64,000 bases of DNA from an uncultured Chloroflexia bacterium (lineage in GTDB: Bacteria > Chloroflexota > Limnocylindria > QHBO01), in assembly GCA_963750025.1 (NCBI GenBank), contig CAVVPF010000022.1:7884-71883 (forward strand), in the 5' to 3' direction. Of this stretch, positions 3,211-53,151 are shown piece by piece. Within the stretch, counting starts at the first letter, position 1. Each line of letters begins with the position of its first letter. The position numbers were made by a program, and so were the translations under genes. The notes below the pieces were generated by a model, which made no database searches, was not told the DNA's origin, and saw only the letters and a list, made by a program, of their open reading frames with translations.

Positions 3211-3230
3211 GTGTAAGTACGGGAGGCACC

Positions 3231-10005: not shown

Positions 10006-10084
10006 CCGGCGGCCCGCGTCCGCTCCAGCAGCAGGTTCCGTTCAGGGACGTTGCGCGTCATCGCGGCGGCCCGGTAGGTGGTTA

Positions 10085-10521
10085 GCGCGTCCCCGACACC
10101 TGCCGGGGACGCCATCGGTGCGAGGCGTATCGCCCGCGCGGTGGTCGAAGGCTCGAAACCTGGAAGGGTGCACGTACACCCTCCGGTTGGAGGAGCCACG
10201 ACCTGCACGGGTGGGGTGGCTGAGCCCTTATGTGAGCCCTTATCGGCCGTGTTCCATAGGTCCCATGTCGCCCATGTTGCCATTCGCGTCGCAGGGTGGG
10301 ACGTATGGCACGGAATACCGCGCATCCGGTATGCGGTACCAGCACTCCTCGATCAGGCCGATTCGTGCTCAAAACGAGGCGAAATGGCCTCGTGCGGCGG
10401 TCATCTGAGCCCTTATCTGAACCCTTACTCGTCGGGCGCCGGTTGGTAAGGCCTCTCCAGTGCGTGATTCGGGGCTCAAGATGTGGTGCAGGGTGAGCCG
10501 GGGGCACTAGATATCGTGGTC
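10085..10521 (+). repeat. Modular intergenic repeat, copy B (most complete)
   Basis: tRNA-Arg-like minihelix at 10085-10115, hairpin at 10162-10184, tandem 12-mers at 10222-10243, core at 10325-10341, second pair at 10407-10428, and ACTAGATATCGTGGTC at 10506-10521. Confidence 0.75.
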
Positions 10522-14816: not shown

Positions 14817-15068
14817 GAGGACAGCGCACGGACGGCGAGGCTCGCGATCAGGTGGTCGTCATGACCTTGCAGTGCCGGGCAACCCGTGACCGTATAACTG
14901 CGCACTTTCGCTCGGCCTCCCGCGCTCGTAGCACAGCGCTCAGGCGGAAATGCTTGGCATGCAAGAGGCCGCTGGTTCGAGTCCGCCGGTGACAGAACTC
15001 CGGGCGCGTTCGTGGCAACCGGACACTGACAGCGACCCGAGTCGCCCGACGATCGATGCGTTGTTAGT

Positions 15069-15279
15069 GCGGATCCTTCACCTGCCTTGGACGCCATCCG
15101 GGTCTGCGCGCGTTGCCTGCGGGTTGGTCGAGAGAAGCCACGACCTGCGCGGGGTCTCTGAGCCCTTATCCGAGCCCTTATGGATCGTGTTCCATGCGTC
15201 CCAGGTGACTCATGCCGCCCACCATGACGCTCGGTGGGACGCATGGCACGGAATACAGCGCATCGGGTATGCGGTACCA
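15069..15279 (+). repeat. Modular intergenic repeat, copy C
   Basis: Degenerate minihelix (CCTGCCTTGGACGCCAT at 15081-15097), tandem GAGCCCTTAT 12-mers at 15160-15181, and core TCGGGTATGCGGTACCA at 15263-15279. By eye it closely resembles copy B across about 170 nt. Confidence 0.7.
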
Positions 15280-39641: not shown

Positions 39642-39718
39642 GTCCCCGTAGCTCAGTGGACCAGAGCGGCTGCCTTCTAAGCAGCGGGTCGCAGGTTCGA
39701 ATCCTGCCGGGGACGCCA
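39642..39718 (+). tRNA. tRNA-Arg (anticodon TCT), CCA encoded
   Basis: Manual cloverleaf: acceptor GTCCCCG/CGGGGAC, D arm GCTC-AGTGGACCA-GAGC, anticodon arm GCTGC-CTTCTAA-GCAGC, variable GGGTC, T arm GCAGG-TTCGAAT-CCTGC, discriminator G, then CCA. Confidence 0.95.
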
Positions 39719-39728
39719 TAGCAACCGA

Positions 39729-39962
39729 GACGGTCTCGGGCAGCGCGACAAGGAGATGATCGCCACGCGCGTCTCGTACGCCAACGCCTGCCGCTACTGC
39801 TCTGCGGCCCACGCCGGCCGGGCGATGCTGCTGGGCGTGCCGGAGGCGATCATGGAGGCCCTCCAGGTGGTGGCCATGTTCAGCGCCTTCAACCGGATGG
39901 CCGATGCATTCGGCGTCGAGTTCGCCGTGCCTGCGCCGGTGGCTGAGGCCGCCCGCGCCTAG
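39729..39962 (+). pseudogene. 5'-truncated carboxymuconolactone decarboxylase/AhpD-family gene
   Basis: 'LGQRDKEMIATRVSYANACRYCSAAHAGRAMLLGVPEAIMEAL' corresponds to the central-to-C-terminal CMD core (CxxC..H). The reading frame runs straight into the tRNA 3' end, so the N-terminal part is missing. Confidence 0.5.
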
Positions 39963-40970
39963 GTGAACAGGCGTCGCCCGGCCTCCTGGAGCGCCGGCAC
40001 GCCGCGGATGTCGGAATCGAGGAGCGGTACCACCGCGCGCACGTCGCCGTCGAAGGTTTCGCCGATCTCGCGCAGGTAGCCCTTCTGCATCGCAATTCGG
40101 TTGCGGACGAACTCGCCGCCCTCGCCGGTGCCCTTCGTCTGCGTGGCATCGATCACCATGTTGACGATCACGCCGCCGACCGGGATCCCGAAGTCGGTGA
40201 ACCAGCCGATGAAGCGGCGGATCACCGCGATGGGCAGCGCCTCGGGCAGCGTCACGAAGAAGAATGCCGTCTTGGCCGGGTCGGTCAGCAGCTCCCGGGC
40301 ATGCTCGATCCGCCCGCGGAAATCGACGAGGTAGGTCATCAGCGGGTCTTCCTCCTTCTTCTTCGTGAAGGAGAGGGCCTCGCGCAGGGTCTGCGCCTCC
40401 TCGCGCGACTTCAGCATCTTGCTGACCCACAGGCCGTAGACCTTGCTACATGCCCAGCAGGCGGCGGGCGTTGGCGGTGGGCGCCGTGTCGAAGACGTAG
40501 ACGTCGTACTCGCCGCGGAACATGAGGTCGACCATGTTCTCGAACATCGCCGATTCCTCGAACGCCGGGTTGGTCGTGGCCGCCTCGACAAACTCATCGG
40601 CCTTGGTTTTGATCTCGGCGAACTTGAGGAACCACTGGCAATCTTCTCGCGGATTTCCCGCTTGGAGCGTTCGATCGCCTCGCTGGTGTCGATCTCCAGC
40701 GCCCAGAGGTTCTCGACGCCGTTCACCGGGGTCTGCTTGCCGAAGACGTCCTGATCCAGCAGGCCGGAGAGCGAGTGGACTGGATTGGTGGAGGCCAGCA
40801 GCACGCGCTTGCCCCTGGCGCGCCAGCTCGACCGCCGTCATGCCGGCCATGGCCGTCTTGCCGACCCCGCCCTTGCCACCGAAGAAGACATAGCGCAGGC
40901 CTGGGTGGGCGGTCATGAAGTCGGCCATCGAAGTGCTGACCAGGCGGGTCGGATCGGTCGCGACGCTCAT
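39959..40970 (-). pseudogene. ArsA/Get3-like ATPase, copy 2, three frameshifts
   Basis: P-loop 'FFGGKGGVGKTA'. The segments 'RVLLASTNPVHSLSGLL', 'QWFLKF...FDTAPTANARRLLGM' and 'SKVYGLWV...AFFFVTLPEALPI...' lie in different frames. The joins are near 40815, 40640 and 40448. Confidence 0.8.
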
Positions 40971-41988
40971 CGTGGCACCTCTCCGTACATCAGCGTGGCG
41001 ACGCGCTCGATCATCTCCAGCCCGGTGACGTCGCGCTCCAGCTCGGGGACGTGAGCGCGCACGTCGCGCCCCAGCTCGCGCTCGATCTCGGCCAACTGGC
41101 CGCGTTGCATCTTCATCCGGTTGCGCAGGTAGGCCGGCACCCCCTCGCTGTCGAGTGACTCGGGCAGGACGCGATTGACGATGTAGCCGGCGACCGGCAC
41201 ATCGAAGCTTGGCGAACATCTCGGCTGCCTTGCGGGTGTCGATGAGGATCATCTGCTCGGGCACGACCACGAAGAAGAAGGCGGTCCGATCTCGATCGGT
41301 CAGGATGCGGGAGGCGGCGTTGATGCGCTGCCGGATGTACTGGAGCTCGGCCAGGATCTCGTCCTCGGCCACCTCCTTCTGGCGCCGCATCCGTGCAGCC
41401 ACCTCCTCGTACTCGCGCATCTCCTCACGAAGGTGGGTGATCTTGCCGATCCACTCGTCGTAGATCTTGGCCATCGACAGGTAGTAGAGGGCGTGGCCCA
41501 GCGGCACGAGGTCGTAGATGTAGTAGTCGTAGTCGCCCTCGGACAGGATGTCGACCACGGCGTCGAAGATCGCCGACTCCTCCATCGCCGGCTCGGCGCT
41601 GGCGGCGGAGATGTAGTCCTCGATCTCCTCGGGCACCTTCTCGAGCCCGTACATGTCCAGGATCTTTGGCGCGCACCTCATCCTGGTAGTCGTTGATGTG
41701 GCGGTCGGCGTCGATCTCCTGGGCCCACAGGTTGTCCATGACCTTGACCGGGCCCTTGCCGAAGATATCGGTCTGGAAGATGTCGGACAGGCTGGCCTGG
41801 GGGTCGACGCTGAAAACCAGGACGCGCTTGCCCTGCTTGGCCAGCCAGTAGCCGGTCGCCGCCGAGAAGGTCGTCTTGCCGAGCCCGCCCTTCCCCCCGA
41901 ACATGATGTAGCGGCGATCAGGGTGGGCGTTGAAGAAGTCGGCCAGCGCCGTCGTGCGGCCCTTGCCCGCCTCAGTCTGCACGGTCAT
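40967..41988 (-). pseudogene. ArsA/Get3-like ATPase, copy 1, two frameshifts
   Basis: P-loop 'MFGGKGGLGKTT'. The frames join near 41665 ('...DEVRAK|ILDMYGLEK...') and near 41208 ('...AEMFAKL|DVPVAGYIVNRVLPE...'). ATGA overlap with copy 2. Confidence 0.8.
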
Positions 41989-41990
41989 GG

Positions 41991-42281
41991 CTAGAACATC
42001 GCATCGGTCACATCCTTCTCGCGCAGCATGCTTCGCTTCCAGGTCGAGATCTGGGGCACGACGTAGGGGAGCAGGCGCAGGGAGTAGTAGGGCGGCAGGA
42101 TCGGCACCCCGACCAGGTCGCCCATGGTGATCAGGATGAAGAGGTGCTCCATGCTCGCCCGGCTGCGGAGGGCGGAGCGGGTCATGTCGTGGGCGGCCAT
42201 CCCGTAGGTGACCTCCCGGAGCTTCCAGACCAGCCCACGCAGCCCGCCCGAGCGCTCCTCGGGTTGCTCTTGGTCAGCCAT
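41991..42281 (-). CDS. Small hypothetical protein with an 'ILPPYYSLRLLPYVVPQ' motif (paralog 1)
   Basis: 96-aa ORF immediately upstream of the ArsA-like pair and paralogous to 42296-42589. Confidence 0.6.
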   Translation of the reverse strand: MADQEQPEERSGGLRGLVWKLREVTYGMAAHDMTRSALRSRASMEHLFILITMGDLVGVPILPPYYSLRLLPYVVPQISTWKRSMLREKDVTDAMF

Positions 42282-42295
42282 CGTTGCCTCCCGGC

Positions 42296-42589
42296 TCAGA
42301 CGCCATGCAGCTCATAGTCGTGCTCCTCGCTGAAGTGGCGTTCGCGCAGGACGCGGCGCTTCCAGGTGGCGACCTGCGGGACGACGAATGGCAGCAGGCG
42401 CAGTGAATAGTATGGCGGAATGATCGGCAGACCGATCATGTCGCCGACGCAGGTCACCATGAAGATCGTCTCCAGGTTGGCGCGCATGGCGACCGACTGG
42501 CGCGCGAACTCGTGCCCGGTCATGCCGTAGAGGAATTCGCGCAGCGCAGCTCGCAGCCCTCCATCTGCCGCGGCGCGCTCGTTGGTCAC
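42296..42589 (-). CDS. Small hypothetical protein with an 'IIPPYYSLRLLPFVVPQ' motif (paralog 2)
   Basis: GTG start at 42589, preceded by a GGGAGGG RBS. It aligns with paralog 1 over its whole length. The longer track ORF (to 42886) overlaps the divergent gene and is unlikely. Confidence 0.6.
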   Translation of the reverse strand: MTNERAAADGGLRAALREFLYGMTGHEFARQSVAMRANLETIFMVTCVGDMIGLPIIPPYYSLRLLPFVVPQVATWKRRVLRERHFSEEHDYELHGV

Positions 42590-42689
42590 GGGCCCTCCCG
42601 ACCAATGTGGATCGGTCCAATCTAGCACCCGCCCGCCAGAGCCGCTTGACCGATGCCCGCCATGCTCCGTACAGTCGCCTGCACTACTC

Positions 42690-43358
42690 ATGTCCGATCT
42701 CTCGGCCTTTGGCGCCTCGCTCGCGATCGCGCTGCTCGCGGTGGTCATGCTGTGGTTCGCCTTCGGCACCCAGCGCAACATCCGGCGCGGCAACGAGCTG
42801 CTCCGCTGGCTCCAGGATGGGCTCCCGCTGCTCGGCGAGCGGACGACCCTGCGCTGGCTGGGAAGCTCGGTCGTCGAGCTGCGCATCTCGCAGCCCGAGG
42901 CGCCGTTTCGCGAGGCCGAGCTCCTGGTGGTGCTCGAGCCGCGCGACCTCGGCGCGCTGTGGGCGCTCGCTCACCGCCGCGGCCGCCGCGACTTCCTCGT
43001 CTTGCGCGTGCGCCTCGTGCGGGCGCCGCGCTTCAACGCCGATCTCGCTGATCCACGGAGCTGGACAATGGGCGATGTGCGGCATCGTTGGGCGGGCGAG
43101 CGCGCGGAGTCGAGCTGGAGCGGGACGTGGGGCGGGACGCGGCTCGAGGCGCGTCACGACGCGACCGTGAAGCTCGACGAGTTGCGCGGCTGGTGGGAGC
43201 AGCTGGCCAGCGTCAGCGGAGGCGTCTGGCGGATGTCGGTCAGCCCGACCGTGCCGCACCTGGAGCTCCACCTCCTGCCGCCGGCCGACGGCGTCAGCTC
43301 GCTGCGGCTGATGGGAGCCATTCGCGAGGTGGCGCGCCAGGTCGCGCCGGGCGGATAG
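42690..43358 (+). CDS. Hypothetical membrane-anchored protein
   Basis: The ATG at 42690 gives an N-terminal TM 'FGASLAIALLAVVMLWFAF'. It is divergent from the small-protein/ArsA operon. Confidence 0.55.
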   Translation: MSDLSAFGASLAIALLAVVMLWFAFGTQRNIRRGNELLRWLQDGLPLLGERTTLRWLGSSVVELRISQPEAPFREAELLVVLEPRDLGALWALAHRRGRRDFLVLRVRLVRAPRFNADLADPRSWTMGDVRHRWAGERAESSWSGTWGGTRLEARHDATVKLDELRGWWEQLASVSGGVWRMSVSPTVPHLELHLLPPADGVSSLRLMGAIREVARQVAPGG

Positions 43359-43414
43359 CAAACGAGTGGGGCGGGCCCGGAGGCCCGCCCCACCCAAGGC
43401 GAAGCGATACAGCT

Positions 43415-45313
43415 TCAGGCGCCCGGCGCCGCCGGCGCGGGAGCCGGCTCGGCAGGCAAGGCCCGGTAGCGGCCCCAGGCCTTCCACGCGTCGAAGGCGA
43501 TGAACAGCGCCGCGACGACCAACAGGAGCGAGATCGCAATCATCGCCCAGGCGCCGATAATGGAGATCGGCGCCGAGCCCTCGCGGATCACGATCGTGAC
43601 GTAGAGGTTGTACGCCGTCACCAGGCTCGCCGCCACGGTGGTCACGTACATGAACAGCATGGGGATCCCGGCATAGGCCGGGTTGCGCCGCGTCGAGGCC
43701 AGCCACAGCGTCACCAGCAGCAAGCTGAGCGCTGCCAGCAGCTGGTTCGAGGCGCCGAAGAGCTGCCACAGGTAGACCCACGTGCCGGACAGCACCAGGG
43801 CCAGCACCAGGACCGACGAGATGATCGTCGCGATGTGCTGATTCTTGAAGCCGACCCACGTGTCGCCCAGCCACTCGCCCAGCGTCACGCGCATGACGCG
43901 AAAGACGAGCTGCACCACGGTCAGCACGATCACAACGAACGCGCCGAAGCCGAGTGCCGTCCCGAAGGCCAGCGGCACGAGGCCGAAGGTCGCCACGTTC
44001 AGCAGGTTGCCGACCCCCGCGGCGAACGCCCCTGCTCCAGCCCCGCCGGCGATCGCCACCGCCGTCAGCGACAGGAGGCCCAGCGTGTTCTCGCTGAACA
44101 TGCCGCCCGCGCCGACCGGCAGCGCATCGGTCTCGTACTGAAGCTGGCGAGCGGTGCCGACCGAGCCGATGAGCGCGTGCCAGCCGGAGATGGCGCCGCA
44201 GGCGATGGTGACGAAGAGCATGGGCCACAGCGTCTGGATGGCGCCCGTGGCGACCTTGGGGGCGAAGTCGGTGAACGCCTCGAGCTTGAAGGTGGCCACC
44301 TCCGGTTGGAAGAACGGTGCCAGGATGGCGCCCACCGCCGAGAGGCCAATGGCCAGGGCGGTGATCCAGAAGCCGATGTAGTTGACCGGCTGCGCGAAGC
44401 GCCAGATCGCCAGGTTGGTGCCCAGGTAGCTGAAGGCCAGCAGGAAGAGGCACCAGAACACGAAGCTGGGCAGGACGTTGATCTCGCCCGTGGCGGCGTT
44501 GAAGACCGCCGTTGACGGTCGCTGCTTGGTCTCGGGGTTGACCGCCGGAACGCGCGGATCGGCGTTCGTCGGGTCGACCACGGTGTAGATGGGAGTTCCA
44601 TCGCCGTTCAGCGTGGCATTGATGCCGCGCACGACACCGCTCACCGGCCCGGTCTCCCAGGTCGGTGGCTGGCCCTGCTGGAAGGTCACGCCCAGCGGAC
44701 CGAGCACCATGGCCAGCAGCGTACTGACCACGATGAGGAGGGTGACCTGGATCAGGTCAACCTTTCGGCGGTAGATGAGGTAGCCACCGAGCATCCCCAT
44801 CGCGGCCAGCACCAGGATCCCGAAGGGGACGTCGGGTCGGGCGTCCAGCACGGCCGCCATGATCCCGACGAAGGCGCCGCCGATTAGCAACAGGTAGAAG
44901 AAGATAAACACGAACAGGATCGTCCGCGTGCGCGGGCTGATGAGCCGGTAGGAGATGGCCGAGAGCGAGTTCCCATCGTTGCGCACGCTCATCATGATCG
45001 CGCTGTAGTCGCTCGCCCAGCCGATGAAGGTGACGCCGATCATCAGCCAGAGGATCGATGGCAGCCAGCCCCACAGGTTGGCGGCGGTGATGACGCCGAC
45101 GATGGGGCCGGCGGCGGCGATCGACTTGAAGTGGTAGCCGTACAGGATGAAGCGGCTGGTCGGCATGAAGTCGGCCCCGTCCATGTACATGGTGGCCGGC
45201 GTCGCGCGCTTCGGGTCCGACTGAATGACGACCCTATCGATGCGGCGGGCGTAAAAGTTGTAGGCGAGGTAGATGACCACCGCGCCGATGACCACGACCC
45301 ATAGTGAACTCAT
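43415..45313 (-). CDS. cstA: Carbon starvation protein A (CstA-family peptide/pyruvate transporter)
   Basis: 'MSSLWVVVIGAVVIYLAYNFYARRI...', 'YGYHFKSIAAAGPIVG' and a polytopic topology are typical of CstA. Confidence 0.9.
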   Translation of the reverse strand: MSSLWVVVIGAVVIYLAYNFYARRIDRVVIQSDPKRATPATMYMDGADFMPTSRFILYGYHFKSIAAAGPIVGVITAANLWGWLPSILWLMIGVTFIGWASDYSAIMMSVRNDGNSLSAISYRLISPRTRTILFVFIFFYLLLIGGAFVGIMAAVLDARPDVPFGILVLAAMGMLGGYLIYRRKVDLIQVTLLIVVSTLLAMVLGPLGVTFQQGQPPTWETGPVSGVVRGINATLNGDGTPIYTVVDPTNADPRVPAVNPETKQRPSTAVFNAATGEINVLPSFVFWCLFLLAFSYLGTNLAIWRFAQPVNYIGFWITALAIGLSAVGAILAPFFQPEVATFKLEAFTDFAPKVATGAIQTLWPMLFVTIACGAISGWHALIGSVGTARQLQYETDALPVGAGGMFSENTLGLLSLTAVAIAGGAGAGAFAAGVGNLLNVATFGLVPLAFGTALGFGAFVVIVLTVVQLVFRVMRVTLGEWLGDTWVGFKNQHIATIISSVLVLALVLSGTWVYLWQLFGASNQLLAALSLLLVTLWLASTRRNPAYAGIPMLFMYVTTVAASLVTAYNLYVTIVIREGSAPISIIGAWAMIAISLLLVVAALFIAFDAWKAWGRYRALPAEPAPAPAAPGA

Positions 45314-45420
45314 GCAACCCTCCCGTTCAAAGGAGCGCGCACAAATGGCGGGGGCAGTCACCCGGATGGTGAGCCTGCCGCGCCGTCTAGCGCGCTGGCG
45401 TCCCCATATGGATCTTCCCT

Positions 45421-45813
45421 TTAGGCCACTCCTCTCCCTCCCGAGGACGACACGTAGCGGTCGATGACGCGATCGACGGCCTCAAAATCGGTACCGATCG
45501 CCGTCTCGCGCCCAGCCACGATCGTTGCCGGGTAGCGGCGCACGCGGTGGCGCAGCGACTTCCAGACCCCCTCGATCGAGGCGGCGTCGATGACGGAGAC
45601 GGCGAGCCGGTCGGGGTGGCGTTCGAGCAGGCGATGGACCCAGTCGGACACCTCCTGGTATTCATGGGCCAGGTTGTCCGGCAGCGAGCTGGAGGCGGCC
45701 TCGCGTTGCACGGGCTGGCCGATGCCGATGCCCTCGAACACCACCTCGCAGTGCTGGCAGTGGCGGAAGACCGTCGGCGCGTAGGTGATGATCTGTACGC
45801 TCACGTGCTGCAT
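45421..45813 (-). CDS. Hypothetical CxxC protein, possibly thioredoxin-fold
   Basis: 'VQIITYAPTVFRHCQHCEVVF' and the C-terminal 'RYPATIVAG' suggest a thioredoxin-like fold. This is a weak call. Confidence 0.45.
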   Translation of the reverse strand: MQHVSVQIITYAPTVFRHCQHCEVVFEGIGIGQPVQREAASSSLPDNLAHEYQEVSDWVHRLLERHPDRLAVSVIDAASIEGVWKSLRHRVRRYPATIVAGRETAIGTDFEAVDRVIDRYVSSSGGRGVA

Positions 45814-45904
45814 CGAACTTCCCATAAGGACATCAGATCCATCGGTTCCGCGCAGGCCGCGAAGACAGGGTACACCCACCTGACAAGGGAGCTGGGGCTG
45901 CGGC

Positions 45905-46690
45905 TCAGATCCCGCGCAGCAGCCCGCCGTCGACCGGGATGAGGGCGCTCGTCACGTACGAGGCGGCATCCGAGCACAGGTAGGTAACGAGGCTCGCCAG
46001 CTCGTCCGGCCGTCCATAGCGTCCCGCGGGGATTGCCGCCTGTGCCTCGGCCTGCACCTCCTCCAGGCTGCGGCCCTCGCGCTCCGCTCGTTCCCGATCG
46101 AGCGAATCGATGCGGGCGGTATGGACCCGGCCGGTGAGCACCCCGTTGATCGTCACGCCGTCGGCGGCCACGGCCACCGCAGCGGTCTTGAGCCAGCCCG
46201 CCAAGGCGGAGCGGCCGGCGGTGGAGTAGACGAGGCTGGGGATCGGCTCGCGGACCACCGACGACATGAGCGCCACCACACGCCCATGGCGCTGCGCACG
46301 CATAGCCGGCAGCAGGGCGGTGGCGATGGCGATGGGCGTGATCGCCAGCAGCTGGAAGGCTTGGCGCCAGCCATCCGGATCGGTGGCGAGTGGGTCGACC
46401 GTGGGCGGGCCTCCCGCGTTCAGGACGCAGATGTCGATCGTGCCCAGGCGCTGGGCGGCCTCGACCACGCGGTCGGCGGCAGCCGGGTCGGCCGCGTCTG
46501 CGGCCAGCGTCTCGACCTCCGCGCCATGAGCCTGCCGCAGCCGCTGCGCGGTGGCGTTCAGTTGGTCTTCGCTGCGCGCCCAGAGCAAGAGGCGGCAGCC
46601 CTCAGCGGCGAGCGCTTCGGCGACGGCCGCGCCCAGGCCAGCTGAGGCGCCTCCGATCGCGGCGGTCCGTCCGGTGAGCCCGAGCTCCAT
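45905..46690 (-). CDS. Short-chain dehydrogenase/reductase (SDR)
   Basis: 'GRTAAIGGASAGLGAA' (TGxxxGxG-like), 'NAGG' and 'YSTAGRSALAG' (YxxxK-like, with Arg in place of Lys). Confidence 0.85.
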   Translation of the reverse strand: MELGLTGRTAAIGGASAGLGAAVAEALAAEGCRLLLWARSEDQLNATAQRLRQAHGAEVETLAADAADPAAADRVVEAAQRLGTIDICVLNAGGPPTVDPLATDPDGWRQAFQLLAITPIAIATALLPAMRAQRHGRVVALMSSVVREPIPSLVYSTAGRSALAGWLKTAAVAVAADGVTINGVLTGRVHTARIDSLDRERAEREGRSLEEVQAEAQAAIPAGRYGRPDELASLVTYLCSDAASYVTSALIPVDGGLLRGI

Positions 46691-47159
46691 GCGCCGATTA
46701 TATGACGGCTGGCGCGAGACCCCGATGCTAGCCGGTCCCGGGAACGACATGCGGTGCGCGTCTTCGCCAGCCGCGAACAGCACCGCCTCGAGCAGCAGAC
46801 CGGCCGTCCAGGCCGAGTGTGCCCATCGCCGACTGGTGGCCGACTGGCAGCCGGAACGGGCGCGGGCGCCGCAACTGGGGGCGCGCAAGCAGCGCGGCAG
46901 GATCTCCCCAACCTCCTGCGCTTCGGCTCAGCGATTCGCCCTCACCCACCTTCAGGATGCAACGCGCTGAGATAGAGACACACTCTCTGCGGATCGGCGG
47001 GCTCGAGCCGAAGATCAGCAAGCATTCGACGCTAGCACTGGCATCGGTCTTCAACTGATGTCCGCGCAGTTCACCCTCAATGAATCGGTCCATGCGCGGG
47101 ACGCCACTTTCAACTCGAGATAATTTCGCCACTCGCCGCCTGGCACCGACACAGGACGA

Positions 47160-48284
47160 TCAGACGAGCCGGCCGGGATCCTCGAGCGCTGCGATGACCT
47201 GGTCGAGGAAGGCCGCCGCGGGGACGCCATCCACGACGCGGTGGTCGAACGTCAGACTGAGCACGACCAGCGTCCTGGCAATGATCGCCCCATCGATGAC
47301 GGCCGGCCGCCGCCGAGCTCGACCGAGCCCCAGGATCGCTGCCTGGGGCGGGTTGAGGAGCGGGGTGAATGCGTCGATTCGGTAGCCTCCCAGGTTGGTC
47401 ACGGAGAAGACCGCGCCCCGCGTCTCCACCTCGGCGAGACGAGCTGAGCGCGCCCGCTCGGCGAGGTCGGCGATCTCGCGGTCAAGCTGCTCGAGGCTCT
47501 TGGCGTCGGCCTGCCGCACGACCGGAACGATGAGCCCGTCATCGAGCGCGACGGCGACGCCGATGTCAATCCGCTCCGGAAGTCGGAGGCCCTCGTCCGT
47601 CCAGGCGGCGCCGAGACGCGGGTGGTCGCGCAGCGCGAGCGCGGAGGCGCGCACGGCCGCCGCGGTGTAGGTTGCCCGCTCCTCGGAGCGGGCGCTCAAC
47701 GCGGCGAGCAAATCGGCGAGAGCGGTGACGTCGGCTTCTGCGGTAAGCGTCAGTTGGGCAGTCTCGAACAGACCGCTCCGCATCCGCTCGGCGATCGCTC
47801 GGCGCATTGGCGTGAACCCCACCAGTCCGGCTCGGGGTCGCCCCTCGCCTTCGGGCGCCCGCACGTCCGCCTCGACTATTCGCCCGCCCGGCCCCGTTCC
47901 GGTGATCGACGCGAGGTCGATGCCCAGCTCGAGCGCGAGTCGCCGCGCGGCCGGCGACGCGGCCACGGGCTGACCGACGGGTGCGACCGGGGCGACGGCC
48001 GGTGGAGCCGAGACCGGAGCATGAGCCGATGCAGCTTCGACGGGTTGCTCAATCGCCTCAAGGACCGCGATCGGATGTCCCTGGACGATCACGCCGCCCG
48101 GTTCAACGAGCAGCTCGAGCGTTCCGCTCGCGGGCGCCCGGACTTCCGCGCTGATCTTCTCCACCTGCACCTCGGCCACGAGGTCGCCTTCGCGGACCGT
48201 GGCTCCTGGCTCAACGAACCACGTGACGAGGATCCCTTCCTCGACGGACTCGGAAATCCGCGGCACGAGGATGTCCTGCCGCAT
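47160..48284 (-). CDS. acoC: Dihydrolipoamide acyltransferase (E2) of an acetoin/2-oxoacid dehydrogenase complex
   Basis: N-terminal lipoyl domain ('AEVQVEKISAEV'), an Ala/Pro linker, and a catalytic domain ending in 'DHRVVDG'. RBS AAAGGAGAG. Confidence 0.8.
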   Translation of the reverse strand: MRQDILVPRISESVEEGILVTWFVEPGATVREGDLVAEVQVEKISAEVRAPASGTLELLVEPGGVIVQGHPIAVLEAIEQPVEAASAHAPVSAPPAVAPVAPVGQPVAASPAARRLALELGIDLASITGTGPGGRIVEADVRAPEGEGRPRAGLVGFTPMRRAIAERMRSGLFETAQLTLTAEADVTALADLLAALSARSEERATYTAAAVRASALALRDHPRLGAAWTDEGLRLPERIDIGVAVALDDGLIVPVVRQADAKSLEQLDREIADLAERARSARLAEVETRGAVFSVTNLGGYRIDAFTPLLNPPQAAILGLGRARRRPAVIDGAIIARTLVVLSLTFDHRVVDGVPAAAFLDQVIAALEDPGRLV

Positions 48285-48334
48285 CGGTCTCTCCTTTCGG
48301 TCACCGCTGGTGCTAGCGCGAGCGGCGCTGCCGG

Positions 48335-48861
48335 ATGCTGAACCGGCGGCGCCGCTCGGATGGTCGACCGAGCCCCAGGCCCGCGCGGTGGGCTGGGCCT
48401 AGCACGCGATGGCCACCGCCGGGCCCGATGCGACCCGAGCTGCTTGGTGTCGAGGTGCAGCAGCTCGCCGGGCGCGGCGCGCTCGTAGCGGATGACTGGC
48501 GGCCGGGGCTCGAGCCGGTCGAGGCGTCCCAGACCGTGCCGGCGCAGGAGGGCATACACCGTCGAGCGCGGCAGGCCGGTCTGCCAGGCCAGGCGGTGCG
48601 GGCCGACCCGCAGCTCGCGGCGCAACGCGGCACAGCCGCTCACCGAGCTCGGCCGGATGGCCCGCGCCTGGCGGCGCACCACGCTGCGACGATCGACGAG
48701 GCCGATCGTTCCCTCGCGCCGGTAGCGGCTCCACCACTTCGAGCCGGTCTGGCGGCTGATGCCGGCGGCACGCGCCGCCCGGCTCACCGGCCAGCCGCCG
48801 CGATGCGCTCGACCAGGACCGCCCTGCCCCGCGGGGTGAGGCAGGCATTAGCATGTGACAC
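48335..48861 (-). mobile_element. IS481-family transposase remnant (N-terminal third, frameshifted)
   Basis: 'VSHANACLTPRGRAVLVERIAAAG|...SRAARAAGISRQTGSKWWSRYRREGTIGLVDRRS...RYERAAPGELLHLDTKQLG|RIGPGGGHRVLG' shows the IS481 HTH region plus the start of the DDE core. There are at least two indels, and the rest of the core is deleted. Confidence 0.7.
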
Positions 48862-48949
48862 GAGGGCCCCTCCTTCGACTGTGGTTTCGACGCCAACAGC
48901 CGAAGGATACGGGCCCTCAACCCGTCAACAACCTGATTGGGAACTAGAG

Positions 48950-49969
48950 CTAGCGGCCCATGAGCTGCCTTGCGGCCGCGGCGATCTTGTCGCGATTCGG
49001 CAGGCAGAATTGCTCGAGTGGTCGGCTGTAGGGGATGGGAACGTCCGGGTAGGCCAAGCGGGCGGGCGGCGCATCGAGATGGTCGAAGGCTCCCTCGATC
49101 GCCGTCGTGATGACCTCGCCGCTCATCCCGAAGCTCTGATAGTCCTCGTCGACGACGAGGAGCCGATGCGTCTTCTGGACGGAGGCGATGATCGCCTCGC
49201 GGTCGAGCGGGACGAGCGAACGCAGGTCGAGGACTTCGGCCTCGATGCCGTCCTTCGCCAGGTCCTCGGCCGCGTCGAGAGCGCGGTGGACCATGAGTGA
49301 GATCGTCACGATCGTGAGATCTCGACCCTCGCGCTTCACGTCTGCCTTGCCGATAGGGATCTCGTACGGCTCCTCGGGGACGTGTGCCGTCGCACGCGGG
49401 TTCGGGGTCATCCAGCCGAGTCCCATGATCCCCTTGTGGAACATGTAGATGACGGGGTTGTCGTCCCGGATCGCGGAGATCATCAGGCCCTTGGCGTCGT
49501 ACGGCGTTGAGGGCACGACGACCTTCATGCCGGGGAGATGGGCGAACACCCCATAGAGCGTTTGCGAGTGCTGGGCGCCGTCGCCATAGCCGCCGCCGAT
49601 CGCGGTCGTGACGACGACGGGCACCTTCACGTTTCCGCCGGACTCGTAATGGATCTTCGCCATGTGGTTGTAGATCTGGTCCATGCAGACGCCGAAGAAG
49701 TCGACGAACATCAGCTCGGCGATCGGCCGCATGCCCGAGATCGCGGCCCCGACCGCCGCCCCGATGAACGCCGTCTCCGAGATCGGCGTGTCCATCACCC
49801 GCTCGGGTCCGAACTTGGCGAGCAGGCCCTCGGTTGCCCCGAAGATCCCCCCGTACGCGCCGATGTCCTCGCCCATGACGAAGACGCTCGGATCGCGATC
49901 CATCTCCTGGGCGATCCCCTCCGAGATCGCCTTCGACGTCGTCAGCAGGCGCTTCGTTTCGATTGCCAT
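48950..49969 (-). CDS. acoB: Acetoin/pyruvate dehydrogenase E1 beta subunit
   Basis: 'VFVMGEDIGAYGGIFGATEGL...VMDTPISE' and the C-terminal transketolase-like domain. Confidence 0.9.
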   Translation of the reverse strand: MAIETKRLLTTSKAISEGIAQEMDRDPSVFVMGEDIGAYGGIFGATEGLLAKFGPERVMDTPISETAFIGAAVGAAISGMRPIAELMFVDFFGVCMDQIYNHMAKIHYESGGNVKVPVVVTTAIGGGYGDGAQHSQTLYGVFAHLPGMKVVVPSTPYDAKGLMISAIRDDNPVIYMFHKGIMGLGWMTPNPRATAHVPEEPYEIPIGKADVKREGRDLTIVTISLMVHRALDAAEDLAKDGIEAEVLDLRSLVPLDREAIIASVQKTHRLLVVDEDYQSFGMSGEVITTAIEGAFDHLDAPPARLAYPDVPIPYSRPLEQFCLPNRDKIAAAARQLMGR

Positions 49970-49988
49970 CGAGTGACCTCCTCTCTGC

Positions 49989-50972
49989 TCATGCGAAGAC
50001 GTGCTGGAGCGCCGCCGAGGGCTCCGGATATGGACTCGAGCGGGCAAACTCGATCGCGTCGTCAACCTCGGTTCGCGCCCGGTCCCAGGCGCTCAGGGCG
50101 TCCTTCGCGGTCAGGACGCCGGAATCGATCAGCCGGCGCTCGAACGCTCGGACTGCGTCCCGCTCCTGGAGGAGCGCGAGCTCCTCCTTGGTCCGGTAGA
50201 CCTGCGGGTCGCCTTCGAAGTGGCCCAGCAGGCGGTCCGTCTTGACCTCGATCAGTGATGGGCCGCCGCCGCGTCGGGCGCGGCTGACGGCCTCGCCGGC
50301 TGCCTCGTAGATCGCGACCGGGTCGTTGTCCGGGACGAGCACGCCGGGGATCCCGTAGGCGGCCGCCCGATCGCTGTTGTTGGCAATGGCCGTCGCCTTC
50401 TCCTTCGGCACGCTGATGGCCCAGGCGTTGTCCTCGCACACGAAGACCACGCCGAGGCGCCACAGTGCCGCGAGGTTCAGCGACTCATGGAAGGCTCCCT
50501 GGTTGGCGGCGCCTTCGCCGAAGAAAGAGACCGCGATGTCGTCCTTGCCCTGCTTCTTGAAGGCGAGGGCATGGCCGACGGCCGTTGGCATCCCTTCGGC
50601 GATGATCCCGCTGCAGCCGAAGTTCGTGGCCGGATCGAACAGGTGCATGTGGCCGCCCTTGCCGTGGCCGAGGCCGGTCTCCTTCCCGAAGATCTCGGCC
50701 GCGAGCTGCTTGATGTCCATGCCGTGGGCAAGGGCGATGTGATGTGGCCGGTGGGTGGCGGTGACCGCGTCGGTCGGTCGCAGGTGGGCGGCGACTCCCA
50801 CCGCGACCGGCTCCTGGCCGGCCGCCAGATGCATCTCACCCGGGACGGGCCCGGCCGCGATGTCAAAGGCCGGTGTCTTCCCCTCGAAGTAGACCTTCTG
50901 GATGGTCTCCTCGAAGAGTCGGATCCGAACCTGCTGGTAGTGCATGTTAAGCAGCGTCTCGTTGCTGGGCAT
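49989..50972 (-). CDS. acoA: Acetoin/pyruvate dehydrogenase E1 alpha subunit (TPP-binding)
   Basis: TPP motif 'GEGAANQGAFHESLNLAALWRLGVVFVCEDNAWAIS'. Confidence 0.9.
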   Translation of the reverse strand: MPSNETLLNMHYQQVRIRLFEETIQKVYFEGKTPAFDIAAGPVPGEMHLAAGQEPVAVGVAAHLRPTDAVTATHRPHHIALAHGMDIKQLAAEIFGKETGLGHGKGGHMHLFDPATNFGCSGIIAEGMPTAVGHALAFKKQGKDDIAVSFFGEGAANQGAFHESLNLAALWRLGVVFVCEDNAWAISVPKEKATAIANNSDRAAAYGIPGVLVPDNDPVAIYEAAGEAVSRARRGGGPSLIEVKTDRLLGHFEGDPQVYRTKEELALLQERDAVRAFERRLIDSGVLTAKDALSAWDRARTEVDDAIEFARSSPYPEPSAALQHVFA

Positions 50973-51029
50973 CGCTTGACCTCCGTGGTCAGGTCTGATC
51001 GATCGCTCGGTTGGGACAGTCCTCAGCGC

Positions 51030-51869
51030 TCACCTCCTCCTAGCGGGCCAGCCGGTCGCGTGCCAGGCTGGCTCCGAGTAGCGGCTCCGGAAGAGATCGG
51101 TGGCCACCGCCAGCTCGGACGCCCGGAGACCGTCGGCCTTGACTCGGCGCTCCCACGGGCCGCCGGCGGCCGCCCTGAACGCCTGGACCACGGCGTGGTC
51201 GACGAGGGCGTGGAGCGCGTGCCGGGCGGGCGGACTCCCACCGGCGGCTGCGCCCTCGTCGAGTTCGCGCGCGAGCGACGTAACCGGAACTCGTTCACTC
51301 TTCGTCAGTTCCCAGCGGCGGTTCCCGGGGTCCCCGGGTCCGGCCAAGGTTCGCTCGAGCGCCTCGAGGTCGGCGTCGACGAGCAGGGTGGCGTGGACGA
51401 GTATGCTCCGGTCGCCGACCCACGCGGCGATTCCGCAGAGCTTCCGCCCTCGCGCGAAGAGGCCGCGCCGGGCCGGCTCGGCCGCGATCCCGAGGGTCCG
51501 CACGGCCGCCGCGAGCGGCTCGATCATGGCGCCGTAGAGTCTCAGGAGGCCGCCGCCGAGACGGCCTTCGACGAGTGGATGGTCGCGCCGTGCCACGAGG
51601 CTGACGTTGAGGTTGCCGGCGTCGTGATAGACGGCCCCGCCCCCGGTGAAGCGGCGGTACACCGGGGCGCCGAGCTGCCCGGCGGCTCCCAGGTCCACTT
51701 CCGCGTCGGCCACTTGGAAGCGGCCCAGGATGACGCACCGGTCGTTGCGCCAGAGCCGGAGGATGGGCTCGGGCCCGGCCGTGCGGGCGAGAGCCTCATC
51801 GACGGCGAGGTTGCGCCTCGGCTCACGCTGGCCGTCGTCCGCGATGAACCGAAACGGCGGGGCGATCAT
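51030..51869 (-). CDS. lplA: Lipoate-protein ligase A-family protein
   Basis: 'NLAVDEAL...LRLWRNDRCVILGRFQ...RRFTGGGAVYHDAGNLN...RKLCG' is the BPL/LplA/LipB catalytic-domain pattern. Confidence 0.8.
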   Translation of the reverse strand: MIAPPFRFIADDGQREPRRNLAVDEALARTAGPEPILRLWRNDRCVILGRFQVADAEVDLGAAGQLGAPVYRRFTGGGAVYHDAGNLNVSLVARRDHPLVEGRLGGGLLRLYGAMIEPLAAAVRTLGIAAEPARRGLFARGRKLCGIAAWVGDRSILVHATLLVDADLEALERTLAGPGDPGNRRWELTKSERVPVTSLARELDEGAAAGGSPPARHALHALVDHAVVQAFRAAAGGPWERRVKADGLRASELAVATDLFRSRYSEPAWHATGWPARRR

Positions 51870-52993
51870 CGGTCTGGCCCCCGCCCGGCGAACGCGCCGC
51901 TGCGGGCCGCTGCCCGAAGCACGCCGTGCGCGTCGAGGACGCGCGGACCGCCGGCCGTCAGGCGGACGCTGGCGCTCATCCCCGGCTCGAGCACGATCTC
52001 GCGCTCGCCATCGAACGCGAGTGTCAGGCCTCGTTCGTCGTCACTCGATGGAGGATGCCCGTTCCCAAGAGCGGGTCGGCCGTCGGCCGGGGTCGGCCAG
52101 CCGCGCCTGACCGGCTCGCCGAGCGTGACCGGCTCGCCGAGCGCCAGCACCCGCCAGTCACGGATGCCGACCGGGACAAGCTGGCCCGGCCCCAGGGGCA
52201 CCGTCACTAACGAACCGCCCGGGCCGAACCGCACGTGGAGCGCATGTGGCGGCTCGGCGTCGAGCGGGCTGATCATCCCGCCGAGCCCGGCGAGGCCCGT
52301 GAGCGCAGGGTCGCTCCGAGCGACTATGGCCTCGACGAGGAGCGCCGGGTCCCAAAGCGCATGCGCGCCAACCCAGCCGCAGCGCACGAGGGCCACGTCC
52401 ACCAAGGCGATCATGGTCGCTTCGAGCTGGCCGTCGAGGCGGACCTCCAGCCTCGGTGCCTGCCATACGTGTCTCGCGAACCGCTCGGGATCGGAGGCGT
52501 AGATGCCGGCCGCCAGCCCCGCCGCCGTGGGATCGATCGGCGTGCCGAATGCGTTGTTCGTGCCGCCCGGCAGCGGCACGAGGAGGGCGGACGGCCAGCC
52601 GTGCGCGACCGCGCGATTCGTGCCGTCCCCGCCGATCGTCACGAGGCAGGCGACGCCGGCCTCGGCCATCGCTCTTGCGGCAGCCGCGGTGCCGGCCGCG
52701 TCGAGCGCCTCGGGACCGTTAGGCAGCTCCACCGCGCGGAGGCGAAGCCCGACGCGGCCGTCGAGGGAGAGACCGGCCGCGTCGAGCATGTCGACCGCCC
52801 GCTCGACGACGTGGGTGGGTTCCGACATGAACAGCACGGTCTGGACGCGCCCGCCGATCAGGCCGCGCAGGACGCGCGCGACGGCGTTCACGCGTTCGTG
52901 GACGTCGATCGTACGGGCCAGCGACGTGAGACGACGCACGTCACGCGATGCACTCGCGTTGACGATGAGTCCGACCCTCGTCCCGCGCTTCAT
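51866..52993 (-). CDS. acoX: AcoX-like protein (ATP-NAD kinase/diacylglycerol-kinase fold)
   Basis: 'VTIGGDGTNR' motif, and the first position in an aco-type operon. Contains an 18-nt tandem duplication (LGEPVT-LGEPVR). Confidence 0.65.
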   Translation of the reverse strand: MKRGTRVGLIVNASASRDVRRLTSLARTIDVHERVNAVARVLRGLIGGRVQTVLFMSEPTHVVERAVDMLDAAGLSLDGRVGLRLRAVELPNGPEALDAAGTAAAARAMAEAGVACLVTIGGDGTNRAVAHGWPSALLVPLPGGTNNAFGTPIDPTAAGLAAGIYASDPERFARHVWQAPRLEVRLDGQLEATMIALVDVALVRCGWVGAHALWDPALLVEAIVARSDPALTGLAGLGGMISPLDAEPPHALHVRFGPGGSLVTVPLGPGQLVPVGIRDWRVLALGEPVTLGEPVRRGWPTPADGRPALGNGHPPSSDDERGLTLAFDGEREIVLEPGMSASVRLTAGGPRVLDAHGVLRAAARSGAFAGRGPDR

Positions 52994-53122
52994 CCCGTCC
53001 GCACCCTGCCCCTTGCCGGTAACCCGGAATGCCCCTCTCCGCCGGCGGGATGTCCCAAGCTGCCCACCGGGGAAGAACCGCCAGTGTAATCGCGTGCACC
53101 GGGCCGGGTAAGGGCACAACGG

Positions 53123-53151
53123 CCCGTTCGCGCCCGGGCCACGCGAACGGG
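53123..53151. promoter_or_regulatory. Perfect 10-bp inverted repeat CCCGTTCGCG-N9-CGCGAACGGG upstream of acoX
   Basis: Seen directly, about 130-160 nt upstream of the acoX start on the minus strand. Confidence 0.35.

What the first reader, a model, noticed from the sequence alone, without database searches (positions are those of the whole stretch)
10085..10115. Hairpins that mimic the acceptor/T-stem minihelix of the local tRNA-Arg(TCT)
CCTGCCGGGGACGCCA is the 3' half of the T-stem, the acceptor 3' strand, the discriminator and the CCA of the tRNA at 39642-39718. It recurs exactly at 10099-10114 (17 nt including the next T) and at 53757-53772. A degenerate copy, CCTGCCTTGGACGCCAT, lies at 15081-15097. 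All are on the tRNA strand.

At 10085-10095 the 5' flank GCGCGTCCCCG also equals the tRNA 5' end plus 4 upstream nt. At 53745-53753 it is GCGGCCCCG. Both loci therefore fold as 'acceptor stem + 3-nt linker + half T-stem + CCA'. That is the tRNA gene with positions ~8-60 deleted.

The non-tRNA copies share CACCTGCC where the tRNA has ATCCTGCC, so they are closer to each other than to the tRNA. Two of them form the 5' edge of the long repeat (copies B and C). Possible roles are RNase P or CCA-enzyme processing signals, a tRNA-derived mobile module, or terminator-like hairpins.
Basis: seen in the sequence. Interest (0 to 1): 0.7.

Follow-up and report, generated by a model that had tools for sequence, protein, structure and literature searches.

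The report
Serine-integrase attachment sites at tRNA-Arg
The "tRNA-mimicking hairpins" are DNA attachment-site scars left by mobile genetic islands that insert into the end of the tRNA-Arg gene, apparently using a large serine integrase, an enzyme class that a 2015 survey said was not known to target tRNA genes.

Summary
The 16-mer CCTGCCGGGGACGCCA occurs exactly three times, in the tRNA and at 10099 and 53757, with a decayed copy at 15081. The RNA-minihelix reading is not supported.

Related Chloroflexota (Limnocylindria) genomes and metagenomes hold 68 distinct copies of the motif. Each ends a conserved 66-150 nt module. Where a tRNA-Arg(TCT) lies on the same contig, the motif is 1-14 kb downstream of it on the same strand.

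The "hairpin" is the centre of a roughly 46-bp imperfect palindrome, TAGCAACC..CG.CCCCGGCA|CC|TGCCGGGG.CG..TAGCAACC. [quoted passage not shown]

In relatives, a large serine recombinase gene abuts the repeat and reads into it. The window keeps only its last ~34 codons (39672-39773). In six distinct genomes sampled through a neighbouring marker gene, two sites were occupied and four were empty.

So the tRNA is attL, 53745-53772 is attR, and 39719-53756 is a decayed 14-kb island. The copies at 10083 and 15065 are orphan scars.

These are ordinary att-site relics. The unusual point is that the integrase appears to be a serine integrase, not a tyrosine one.

The parts
39642..39718 (+). tRNA-Arg(TCT). 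In the integrated state this is attL: the B half-site (T-arm), the central CC (39703-39704), and a P'-type right half that restores the tRNA 3' end.
   Evidence: ARAGORN and Rfam at 71 bits. The flank on its 5' side (the marker gene at 39292-39591) is syntenic with L035, L103, L126 and L170.
39717..39773 (-). Remnant of a large serine recombinase gene, about the last 34 codons (...ALPETVSVAM). It reads into the tRNA 3' end and also supplies the outer P' motif TAGCAACC (39719-39726).
   Evidence: tblastn with the L248 recombinase C-terminus hits window 39773-39672 at 68% identity, E = 4e-4. The same flank follows hairpins in L048, L092, L096 and L160 and follows tRNAs in L245, L248 and L253.
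39719..53756 (.). A decayed 14-kb island between attL and attR. It holds a CMD fragment, ArsA pseudogene pieces, CstA, an SDR, 2-oxoacid dehydrogenase E1ab/E2 genes, LplA and a NAD-kinase-like gene. It has no intact recombinase.
   Evidence: Pfam scans. It is bounded by the direct repeat.
53604..53744 (+). Module L, the conserved element-side (P) arm. The core part is 53684-53744 and includes the outer half-site motif TTGCTAA. The extended part is 53604-53683.
   Evidence: It is conserved in 46-65 aligned family members. It shows no RNA covariation.
53745..53772 (+). The attR core: P half GCGGCCCCGTCA, central CC (53757-53758), then TGCCGGGGACGCCA, the displaced original tRNA 3' end. The chromosomal Usp gene follows (stop codon at 53778).
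   Evidence: The same hairpin-Usp junction occurs in L126 and L176.
10083..10115 (+). An orphan att scar, which is the reported finding. It comprises about 22 nt of the P half-site (GGTTAGCGCGTCCCCGACA), CC, and TGCCGGGGACGCCAT. It lies about 110 nt upstream of module R.
15065..15097 (+). A decayed orphan att scar (TAGTGCGGATCCTTCA CC TGCCTTGGACGCCAT). It no longer forms a palindrome.
   Evidence: It does not fold.
10222..10427 (+). Module R, the "long repeat". It has two pairs of 10-nt direct repeats, a covarying inverted repeat, and the last 18 nt of tRNA-Glu(CTC) at 10324-10341. Other copies lie at 4379-4499, 8316-8497 and 15160-15279. It is probably an att site of a second element family.

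Best explanation
The hairpins are DNA recombination sites, not RNA elements. [quoted passage not shown]

The element's attP is a roughly 46-bp imperfect palindrome: GGTTGCTAG-n-CG-K-CCCCG-R-CA | CC | TGCCGGGG-A-CG-CCA-TAGCAACC. Its right half copies the tRNA from the 3' half of the T-stem to CCA, so the tRNA is rebuilt after insertion. Its left half is the inverted repeat of that sequence, so it necessarily looks like the acceptor 5' strand.

The inferred mechanism is strand exchange at the central CC by a large serine recombinase, whose gene sits next to the core and reads into it. This produces two junctions:
- attL is the tRNA followed by the 3' end of the integrase gene.
- attR is module L, then the half-palindrome, then CC, then the displaced original tRNA 3' end. 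This junction is the "hairpin".

In the window, the tRNA at 39642 is attL and 53745-53772 is attR. The 14 kb between them is a decayed island that has lost all but about 34 codons of its integrase. The copies at 10083 and 15065 are orphan attR-type scars lying inside a second array of att-like repeats.

What is shown: the anatomy, the synteny, the presence/absence polymorphism, and the adjacency of the recombinase gene.

What is inferred: that this recombinase catalyses the reaction, that the crossover is at CC, and that recombinase-less islands are relics or are mobilised in trans.
For: (1) Direct repeat. The tRNA and the distal copy share 12-21 nt. The identity always begins exactly at CCTGCC (left extension 0 in 9 of 10 pairs). 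The tRNA lies upstream on the same strand in every locus that holds one, at 1-14 kb.

(2) Conserved element arm. The distal copy is always preceded by a conserved element-side arm, and the gene content between tRNA and copy varies.

(3) Palindrome. The reverse complement of the left half has consensus TG.CGGGGcCGt.CTAgCAAcC. The right half has consensus TGCCGGGGACGCCATAaCAACC. The centre is the non-palindromic CC. The inner 11+2+11 bp is a perfect palindrome in L105-type copies.

(4) Recombinase adjacency.
- L248: a Resolvase (1.2e-13) plus Recombinase protein lies 5' of the core at the tRNA. Its C-terminal ORF ends inside the tRNA 3' end.
- L253: the same gene, in one continuous frame, reads into the tRNA-Arg.
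- L138: an intact 550-aa protein (Resolvase 6.5e-18, Recombinase 23.3 bits, PHROG 95 "integrase" 1.9e-42) has a 3' end that crosses a hairpin.
- L255, and a second copy in L248: recombinase remnants lie beside hairpins.
- C-terminal remnants also occur in the window and in L035, L092, L096, L103, L126, L135, L140, L148, L160 and L245-247.

(5) Unbiased sample through the marker gene next to the tRNA. L245 and L248 carry both the integrase-derived flank and a distal module-L hairpin, 5.4 and 5.7 kb away. L249-L252 carry neither, within 6.6-9.7 kb.

(6) No recurrent tyrosine integrase. Among 124 ORFs from hairpin loci, none of the families listed (those hitting two or more ORFs) is an integrase. 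None was found in the window ORFs scanned.

(7) Precedent. An att site lying inside a serine integrase gene is known from rumA-targeting ICEs (PMC4701971).
Against: - No recombination has been observed. No excised circle or exact empty-site counterpart of the window's tRNA-Usp junction was found.
- Most integrase copies are truncated or frameshifted. All 28 database homologues of the C-terminal part are proteins of 306 aa or fewer. The family may therefore be largely extinct.
- Common cores of serine integrases are usually 2-8 bp and lie in ORFs (PMC8092301). Here the shared block is 12-21 bp in a tRNA gene.
- Tandem arrays, where a hairpin is directly followed by another integrase remnant, are not what canonical attP x attB-only serine integrases produce.
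- Module L is conserved over 66-150 nt, far more than a serine-integrase half-site needs. This is unexplained.
- The zinc-ribbon domain was not detected by Pfam. Only a CxxC...C pattern was seen by eye.
- The copies at 10083 and 15065 have no nearby tRNA-Arg or integrase remnant.
Confidence: 0.72

Rival explanations
1. These are classical tRNA-gene island scars made by a tyrosine integrase, of the Islander type. On this view the serine recombinase genes next to the core are cargo or coincidence, and the inverted repeat represents core-type binding sites around a 6-8 bp overlap.
For: The signature of a tRNA plus a displaced 3' fragment flanking an island is typical of tyrosine integrases (PMC4383910). 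The long conserved module L could be an arm carrying accessory sites. The neighbouring module R does have arm-type-like direct-repeat pairs.
Against: No tyrosine integrase appeared among the listed (recurrent) families for 124 ORFs from hairpin loci, nor in the window ORFs scanned. The serine recombinase's 3' end overlaps the core in at least five independent loci. The symmetry runs to within 2 bp of the centre, which leaves no 6-8 bp overlap region.
Confidence: 0.12
2. The hairpin acts as a functional RNA: a tRNA-like minihelix processed by RNase P or the CCA-adding enzyme, or a tRNA-derived small RNA.
For: The acceptor-like stem is followed by G-CCA in the window copies. The two intact copies form stable hairpins.
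Against: Position 2:71 is mismatched in 38 of 46 aligned copies, and no compensatory changes occur. CCA is absent in 24 of 68 copies. No T-stem or T-loop partner exists. RNAalifold finds only the invariant stem. Rfam finds nothing at E <= 10. The motif's position is fully explained at the DNA level.
Confidence: 0.03
3. The hairpin is an intrinsic terminator or another transcription-level hairpin. For example, it could terminate the convergent Usp gene, whose stop codon lies 6 nt from the 53745-53772 copy.
For: The stem is GC-rich and palindromic, so it would fold on either strand. It lies directly after the Usp stop in the window and in L126 and L176.
Against: No U-tract follows on either strand, and the scanner does not call it. 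Neighbouring genes and their orientations differ from locus to locus. A terminator role does not explain module L, the link to the tRNA, or the integrase remnants.
Confidence: 0.04
4. The hairpin is a tRNA-Arg pseudogene with an internal deletion of positions ~8-60, propagated by duplication.
For: At 10085-10115 both ends match the tRNA, including 4 nt upstream of it.
Against: That exact 5' match (GCGT) occurs in 2 of 68 copies. The consensus is ACGG-CCCCG. The sequence to the left is the conserved module L, not the tRNA's upstream flank. The symmetry extends beyond the tRNA-derived part (TAGCAACC/GGTTGCTA), which a deletion cannot produce.
Confidence: 0.03

Closest known systems
attP/attL/attR sites of phage-type large serine integrases (phiC31, Bxb1, A118 class)
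   Same: The site is an imperfect palindrome of about 40-50 bp around a non-palindromic central dinucleotide. The integrase gene lies next to the site. The integrase has Resolvase plus Recombinase domains and hits PHROG 95.
   Different: The target is a tRNA gene, not an ORF. attP carries a 12-21 bp copy of the target that rebuilds the tRNA. A long conserved arm (module L) is present. Tandem arrays occur. No activity has been shown.
tRNA-gene genomic islands made by tyrosine integrases (Islander signature; Williams 2002; Hudson et al. 2015, PMC4383910)
   Same: A tRNA gene and a displaced 3' fragment form direct repeats that bound a variable island. Integration restores the tRNA.
   Different: The associated recombinase is a serine recombinase. 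The site is a near-complete palindrome that leaves only a 2-bp centre. [quoted passage not shown]
SCCmec and pseudo-SCC composite islands at rlmH (orfX), made by the CcrAB large serine recombinases (from my own knowledge, not tested here)
   Same: Serine-recombinase elements insert at the 3' end of a conserved gene and preserve it. Tandem accretion occurs. Many recombinase-less elements are still bounded by the repeats.
   Different: The target is a tRNA rather than a protein-coding gene, the host phylum is different, and the sequences are unrelated.
rumA-targeting streptococcal ICEs with a single serine integrase (PMC4701971)
   Same: The att site lies inside the 3' end of the serine integrase gene, so the integrase C-terminus changes on integration.
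   Different: The target is the rumA ORF, and the direct repeats are 2-21 bp within coding sequence.
tRNA acceptor/T-arm minihelix substrates of RNase P and the CCA-adding enzyme
   Same: The hairpin shares the acceptor 3' strand, the discriminator and (in 65% of copies) the CCA sequence.
   Different: It has no T-stem or T-loop, most copies carry a 2:71 mismatch, there is no evidence of transcription or covariation, and the resemblance is a by-product of DNA dyad symmetry.

Membership tests
Large-serine-recombinase att site | A cognate gene with an N-terminal Resolvase catalytic domain plus a Recombinase domain (and a zinc ribbon) lies adjacent to the site. | tested here: met
   L138: Resolvase 6.5e-18, Recombinase 23.3 bits (cut-off 21.1), PHROG 95 integrase 1.9e-42. 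L248 and L253 have the gene at the tRNA. Pfam did not detect a zinc ribbon. In the window itself only a 34-aa remnant survives.
Large-serine-recombinase att site | Dyad-symmetric half-sites of about 20-25 bp flank a central, non-palindromic crossover dinucleotide. | tested here: met
   The half-site consensuses match at about 17 of 22 positions around CC. The inner 11+2+11 bp is a perfect palindrome in L105-type copies.
Large-serine-recombinase att site | The recombinase catalyses attP x attB recombination with exchange at the central dinucleotide. | not testable with these tools
   This needs an in-vitro or in-vivo recombination assay.
Integrated element bounded by attL and attR | A direct repeat of the target lies at both ends, and related genomes include both empty and occupied sites. 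| tested here: met
   Repeats of 12-21 nt are found. Among six distinct marker-sampled genomes, 2 are occupied and 4 are empty. No exact empty counterpart of the window's own junction was found.
Tyrosine-integrase tDNA island (Islander type) | A tyrosine recombinase gene lies inside the island. | tested here: not met
   None was found in the window ORFs scanned. None appears among the listed (recurrent) families for 124 ORFs from hairpin loci. Families with a single hit were not listed, so a rare one could have been missed.
tRNA-like minihelix RNA | A coaxial acceptor plus T-arm helix with a T-loop, an intact acceptor stem and a 3' NCCA, maintained by covariation. | tested here: not met
   There is no T-arm. 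Position 2:71 is unpaired in 38 of 46 copies, and no pair changes on both sides. CCA follows in 44 of 68 copies. There is no Rfam hit.
Intrinsic terminator | A GC-rich stem is followed by a U-tract downstream of a gene in a consistent orientation. | tested here: not met
   The terminator scan does not call it. The flanking genes and their orientations vary.

The most novel reading that the evidence does not exclude
This is a family of large serine integrases that specifically target a tRNA gene, contrary to the stated generalisation that only tyrosine integrases do so. Its attP is a palindrome built by mirroring the acceptor-stem 3' strand. It also supports tandem accretion of islands, and most of the surviving islands have lost their recombinase. 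If some members are active (L138-, L253- or L254-type), they would give new serine integrase/att pairs whose natural attB is a conserved tRNA-Arg 3' end.
Probability: 0.4. Interest if true: 0.6.

Novelty: new variant of a known kind. Interest (0 to 1): 0.45.

Why it matters
The result turns an apparent RNA oddity into a readable genome-history mark. It delimits a 14-kb decayed island in the window. It also shows that this part of the chromosome is a graveyard of att scars derived from at least three tRNAs: Arg, Glu and Val-like.

More broadly, it points to serine integrases that use a tRNA gene as attB and restore it. A 2015 survey reported this behaviour as unknown for the serine family (PMC4383910). 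That would matter for island-finding software that pairs tRNA targets only with tyrosine integrases, and for mining new serine integrases and att pairs. I did not establish that this is the first such case. Later large surveys may already include examples.

Tried and rejected
- Rfam gave only the tRNA at gathering threshold over the whole window. At E <= 10 it gave nothing around 53741 and nothing meaningful (one chance miRNA hit, E 2.2) around 15065.
- RNAalifold and explicit pair counting on 46 family members found no structure beyond the invariant stem. A candidate helix in module L was no better than shuffled controls (138 of 500).
- The viral-contig scan for the hairpin gave 0 hits. A 14-mer from module R gave 61 viral hits, which I took to be chance and did not examine.
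- The loose genome scan mostly returned unrelated GC-rich hairpins from many phyla. Only Chloroflexota hits shared the flanks.
- ORF clustering around hairpins suggested a shared large gene. This turned out to be paralogous adenylate-cyclase/STAND proteins, not a recombinase.
- I inspected ten integrase-sized ORFs next to tRNAs or hairpins by eye only (they were printed but not scanned against Pfam) and judged them to be ordinary enzymes or secreted proteins.
- A batch scan of 124 ORFs listed no integrase among its recurrent families.
- Exact-protein look-ups of two window proteins found nothing on record, so the source genome could not be fetched.
- I first read the flank after the tRNA as native chromosome, and then as a small ORF. 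It proved to be the 3' end of the serine recombinase gene.
- One Pfam call failed because of wrong coordinates.
- I could not explain why module L is conserved over 66-150 nt, nor why the Arg-type scar sits about 110 nt upstream of module R in at least 11 loci.

Full report
**Observation.**
The window has one tRNA gene, tRNA-Arg(TCT), at 39642-39718 on the + strand. Its last 16 nt, CCTGCCGGGGACGCCA, recur exactly at 10099-10114 and 53757-53772. A 2-mismatch copy lies at 15081-15096. All are on the same strand.

The repeat finder groups the three non-tRNA copies as one family. The two intact copies fold as hairpins (-11.7 and -9.7 kcal/mol as DNA). The copy at 15065 does not fold.

**The motif belongs to a larger conserved unit found in one bacterial class.**
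A loose pattern scan of species-representative genomes returned many unrelated GC-rich hairpins. About 15 loci shared the flanking sequence as well. All came from Chloroflexota MAGs labelled Limnocylindria/Limnocylindrales or "uncultured Chloroflexia". A stricter scan of metagenome contigs gave 64 more loci, nearly all from the same family. In total there are 68 distinct sites.

Every site is preceded by a conserved left arm, which I call module L. Its consensus is ..TCAGGCCGACyGAGGyTCyAArTCCArCTC..CGGCC.ACGATGGGTATGGTTGyTAG.ACGG-CCCCG. It is 66 nt long in all members and about 150 nt in a subfamily that includes the window copy at 53604-53744. The right flank varies but falls into a few recurrent classes. 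The window therefore most likely comes from a Limnocylindria genome. The names of marker-protein homologues agree with this.

**It is not an RNA minihelix.**
- RNAalifold on 46 members predicts only the invariant stem. No pair shows compensatory change.
- A candidate helix in module L does no better than shuffled controls.
- The arm that should mimic the tRNA 5' strand is ACGG-CCCCG in most copies. The exact tRNA-like GCGT occurs in 2 of 68 copies, and the 2:71 position pairs in only 8 of 46 aligned copies.
- CCA follows the stem in 44 of 68 copies.
- Nothing can pair with the half T-stem.
- Rfam finds nothing.
- No U-tract follows the hairpin, and the terminator scan does not call it.

**Link to the tRNA.**
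In every locus that also holds a tRNA-Arg(TCT), the tRNA lies upstream of the hairpin on the same strand, at 1.0 to 14 kb. This covers L035, L091, L103, L126, L148, L170, L175 and the window.

The identity between the tRNA and the distal copy starts exactly at CCTGCC and runs 12-21 nt. The genes in between differ from locus to locus: an adenosine-deaminase-like ORF (read by eye) in one, a sigma-factor-like pair in another, large cyclase fusions in others, and 14 kb of metabolic genes and pseudogenes in the window.

Tandem copies occur in L012/L138, L122/L177 and L149. This is the signature of site-specific insertion into the tRNA 3' end.

**The recombinase.**
No tyrosine integrase turned up in the window ORFs scanned or among the recurrent families for 124 ORFs from hairpin loci.

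I then sampled tRNA-Arg loci independently of the hairpin, using homologues of the conserved 99-aa protein next to the tRNA. In L248, a gene with Resolvase and Recombinase domains lies beside the tRNA and is transcribed towards it. Its C-terminal part, in a shifted frame in this long-read assembly, ends inside the tRNA 3' end (...LGLTVALPEEFVMASPAG). Module L plus the hairpin lies 5.7 kb away, and a second recombinase remnant follows it.

Other loci agree:
- L253 has the same gene in one continuous frame, reading into its tRNA-Arg.
- L138 has an intact 550-aa relative whose 3' end crosses a hairpin. It has Resolvase and Recombinase domains and hits PHROG 95 "integrase" at 1.9e-42.
- L254 and L255 add further copies.

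The sequence that directly follows the window's tRNA (39717-39750, CATAGCAACCGAGACGGTCTCGGGCAGCGCGACA) is the last ~34 codons of this gene. The same remnant follows many hairpins and tRNAs elsewhere.

**Why the hairpin looks like the tRNA 5' end.**
Taking the first two nucleotides of the shared block (CC) as the centre, the two sides are mirror images. The reverse complement of the left half has consensus TG.CGGGGcCGt.CTAgCAAcC. The right half has consensus TGCCGGGGACGCCATAaCAACC. In L105-type copies the inner 11+2+11 bp, CGTCCCCGGCA|CC|TGCCGGGGACG, is a perfect palindrome.

A roughly 46-bp dyad around a non-palindromic dinucleotide is the usual form of a serine-integrase attP. This is established knowledge of that family and was not tested here. 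The right half has to be the tRNA's acceptor 3' strand so that the gene is rebuilt. The left half must therefore be its complement, which is the acceptor 5' strand. The resemblance is a geometric by-product. The two extra matching bases at 10085-10086 are best explained by chance.

**Presence and absence.**
The marker gene retrieved six distinct genomes. (L246 and L247 repeat the L245 arrangement and were not counted.) L245 and L248 carry both the integrase-derived flank at the tRNA and a distal module L-hairpin. L249, L250, L251 and L252 carry neither. In those four the tRNA is followed by unrelated sequence, and no copy occurs within 6.6-9.7 kb. The flank and the hairpin therefore come and go together, as the two ends of an insert should.

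**Reading of the window.**
- The tRNA at 39642-39718 plus the recombinase remnant is attL.
- Module L plus 53745-53772 is attR, followed at once by a chromosomal Usp gene. L126 and L176 have the same junction.
- The segment 39719-53756 is a decayed island without a working integrase.
- The copies at 10083 and 15065 keep only about 22-45 nt of the element arm plus the core. They have no tRNA-Arg or integrase remnant nearby, so I read them as orphan attR-type scars.

**The "long repeat" to the right of the orphan copies (module R).**
Copies lie at 4379-4499, 8316-8497, 10222-10427 and 15160-15279. Related loci hold 15 more distinct copies, 19 in all with the window's four.

Each copy has two pairs of 10-nt direct repeats, whose unit differs between copies but is the same within a copy. 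Each also has a covarying inverted repeat and the string ..ATCCGGTATGCGGTACCA. That string is the last 17-19 nt of tRNA-Glu(CTC), a gene seen intact 4-5 kb from tRNA-Arg in L251 and L253.

Module R therefore looks like an att site of a second element family that targets tRNA-Glu. The repeat pairs may be arm-type sites for a tyrosine integrase. I could not explain why the Arg-type scar sits about 110 nt upstream of module R in at least 11 loci.

Fragments of a tRNA-Val(GAC)-like 3' end also occur (14930-14995, 31489-31552, 34099-34162).

**Comparison with what is known.**
The system works like the attP/attB system of a phage-type large serine integrase. It leaves the same footprint as classical tRNA-gene islands. 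It differs from the first in its target and in carrying a long tRNA-restoring core. It differs from the second in the enzyme family.
- Mycobacterial serine-integrase prophages use 5-8 bp cores inside ORFs (PMC8092301).
- att sites inside a serine integrase gene are known from rumA-targeting ICEs (PMC4701971).
- Tandem, often recombinase-less, serine-recombinase islands are known to me from SCCmec composites. This is recalled, not tested.

My literature searches found no report of a serine integrase targeting a tRNA gene. The library is incomplete, so I do not claim priority.

**Caveats.**
- No recombination was observed.
- Most recombinase copies are truncated. All 28 database homologues of the C-terminal part are 306 aa or fewer.
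- Tandem arrays are atypical for strict attP x attB enzymes.
- The length of module L is unexplained.
- No exact empty counterpart of the window's own tRNA-Usp junction was found.

**Verdict.**
The level of interest is moderate and rests on the probable serine-integrase/tRNA pairing.

Noticed in passing
window 4379-4499, 8316-8497, 10222-10427, 15160-15279: Module R is a repeated unit of about 200 nt. It has two pairs of 10-nt direct repeats (for example GAGCCCTTATnnGAGCCCTTA), whose unit varies between copies but is identical within a copy. It also has a covarying inverted repeat and the last 17-19 nt of tRNA-Glu(CTC). It is probably an att site of a second, tRNA-Glu-targeting element family. 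Its fixed position about 110 nt downstream of the Arg-type scar in at least 11 loci is unexplained.
   Followed up: partly
window 14930-14995, 31489-31552, 34099-34162; L105 5620-5700: Fragments resemble the 3' two-thirds of a tRNA-Val(GAC), with T-arm and acceptor ending GAGTCCAGTGTCGCCCACCA. ARAGORN and Rfam do not call them. They may be scars of a third element family that targets a tRNA.
   Followed up: partly
window 2064-3464 and ~26607-27113: An insertion sequence carries a DDE transposase with an HTH_38 domain. A diverged partial second copy exists (repeats D1 and D10). In L166 an ORF that I judged by eye to be an IS30-like transposase interrupts module L.
   Followed up: no
window 39756-41681: Directly inside the island lie a truncated carboxymuconolactone-decarboxylase fragment and an ArsA ATPase split into three overlapping ORFs. 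This indicates pseudogenisation and a deletion junction 34 nt after the tRNA.
   Followed up: partly
window 4604-7408 (+) and 11952-14816 (-): Two large AAA_16-TPR-LuxR (LAL-type) regulators lie between module R copies. Cyclase/STAND paralogues are also common cargo next to hairpins in related loci.
   Followed up: no
window 53604-53683 (module L, extended part): This is a conserved non-coding stretch with a small palindrome, GTGTCC-nn-GGACAC (about 53662-53676), and a GGAGG on the opposite strand. In several relatives, minus-strand ORFs of different kinds start about 295 nt from the hairpin. The stretch may be a promoter or operator at the element end.
   Followed up: partly
window 35648-37686: Three 102-nt repeats lie about 1 kb apart at 65-72% identity, in a GC-rich, T-poor region downstream of an ABC ATPase gene. 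They are probably internal repeats of a large FtsX-type permease.
   Followed up: no
L248 8383-9904; L254 9469-10945: The serine recombinase genes in these long-read MAG contigs carry single frameshifts. The L253 copy is in one continuous frame. The shifts could be assembly errors rather than real pseudogenes.
   Followed up: partly
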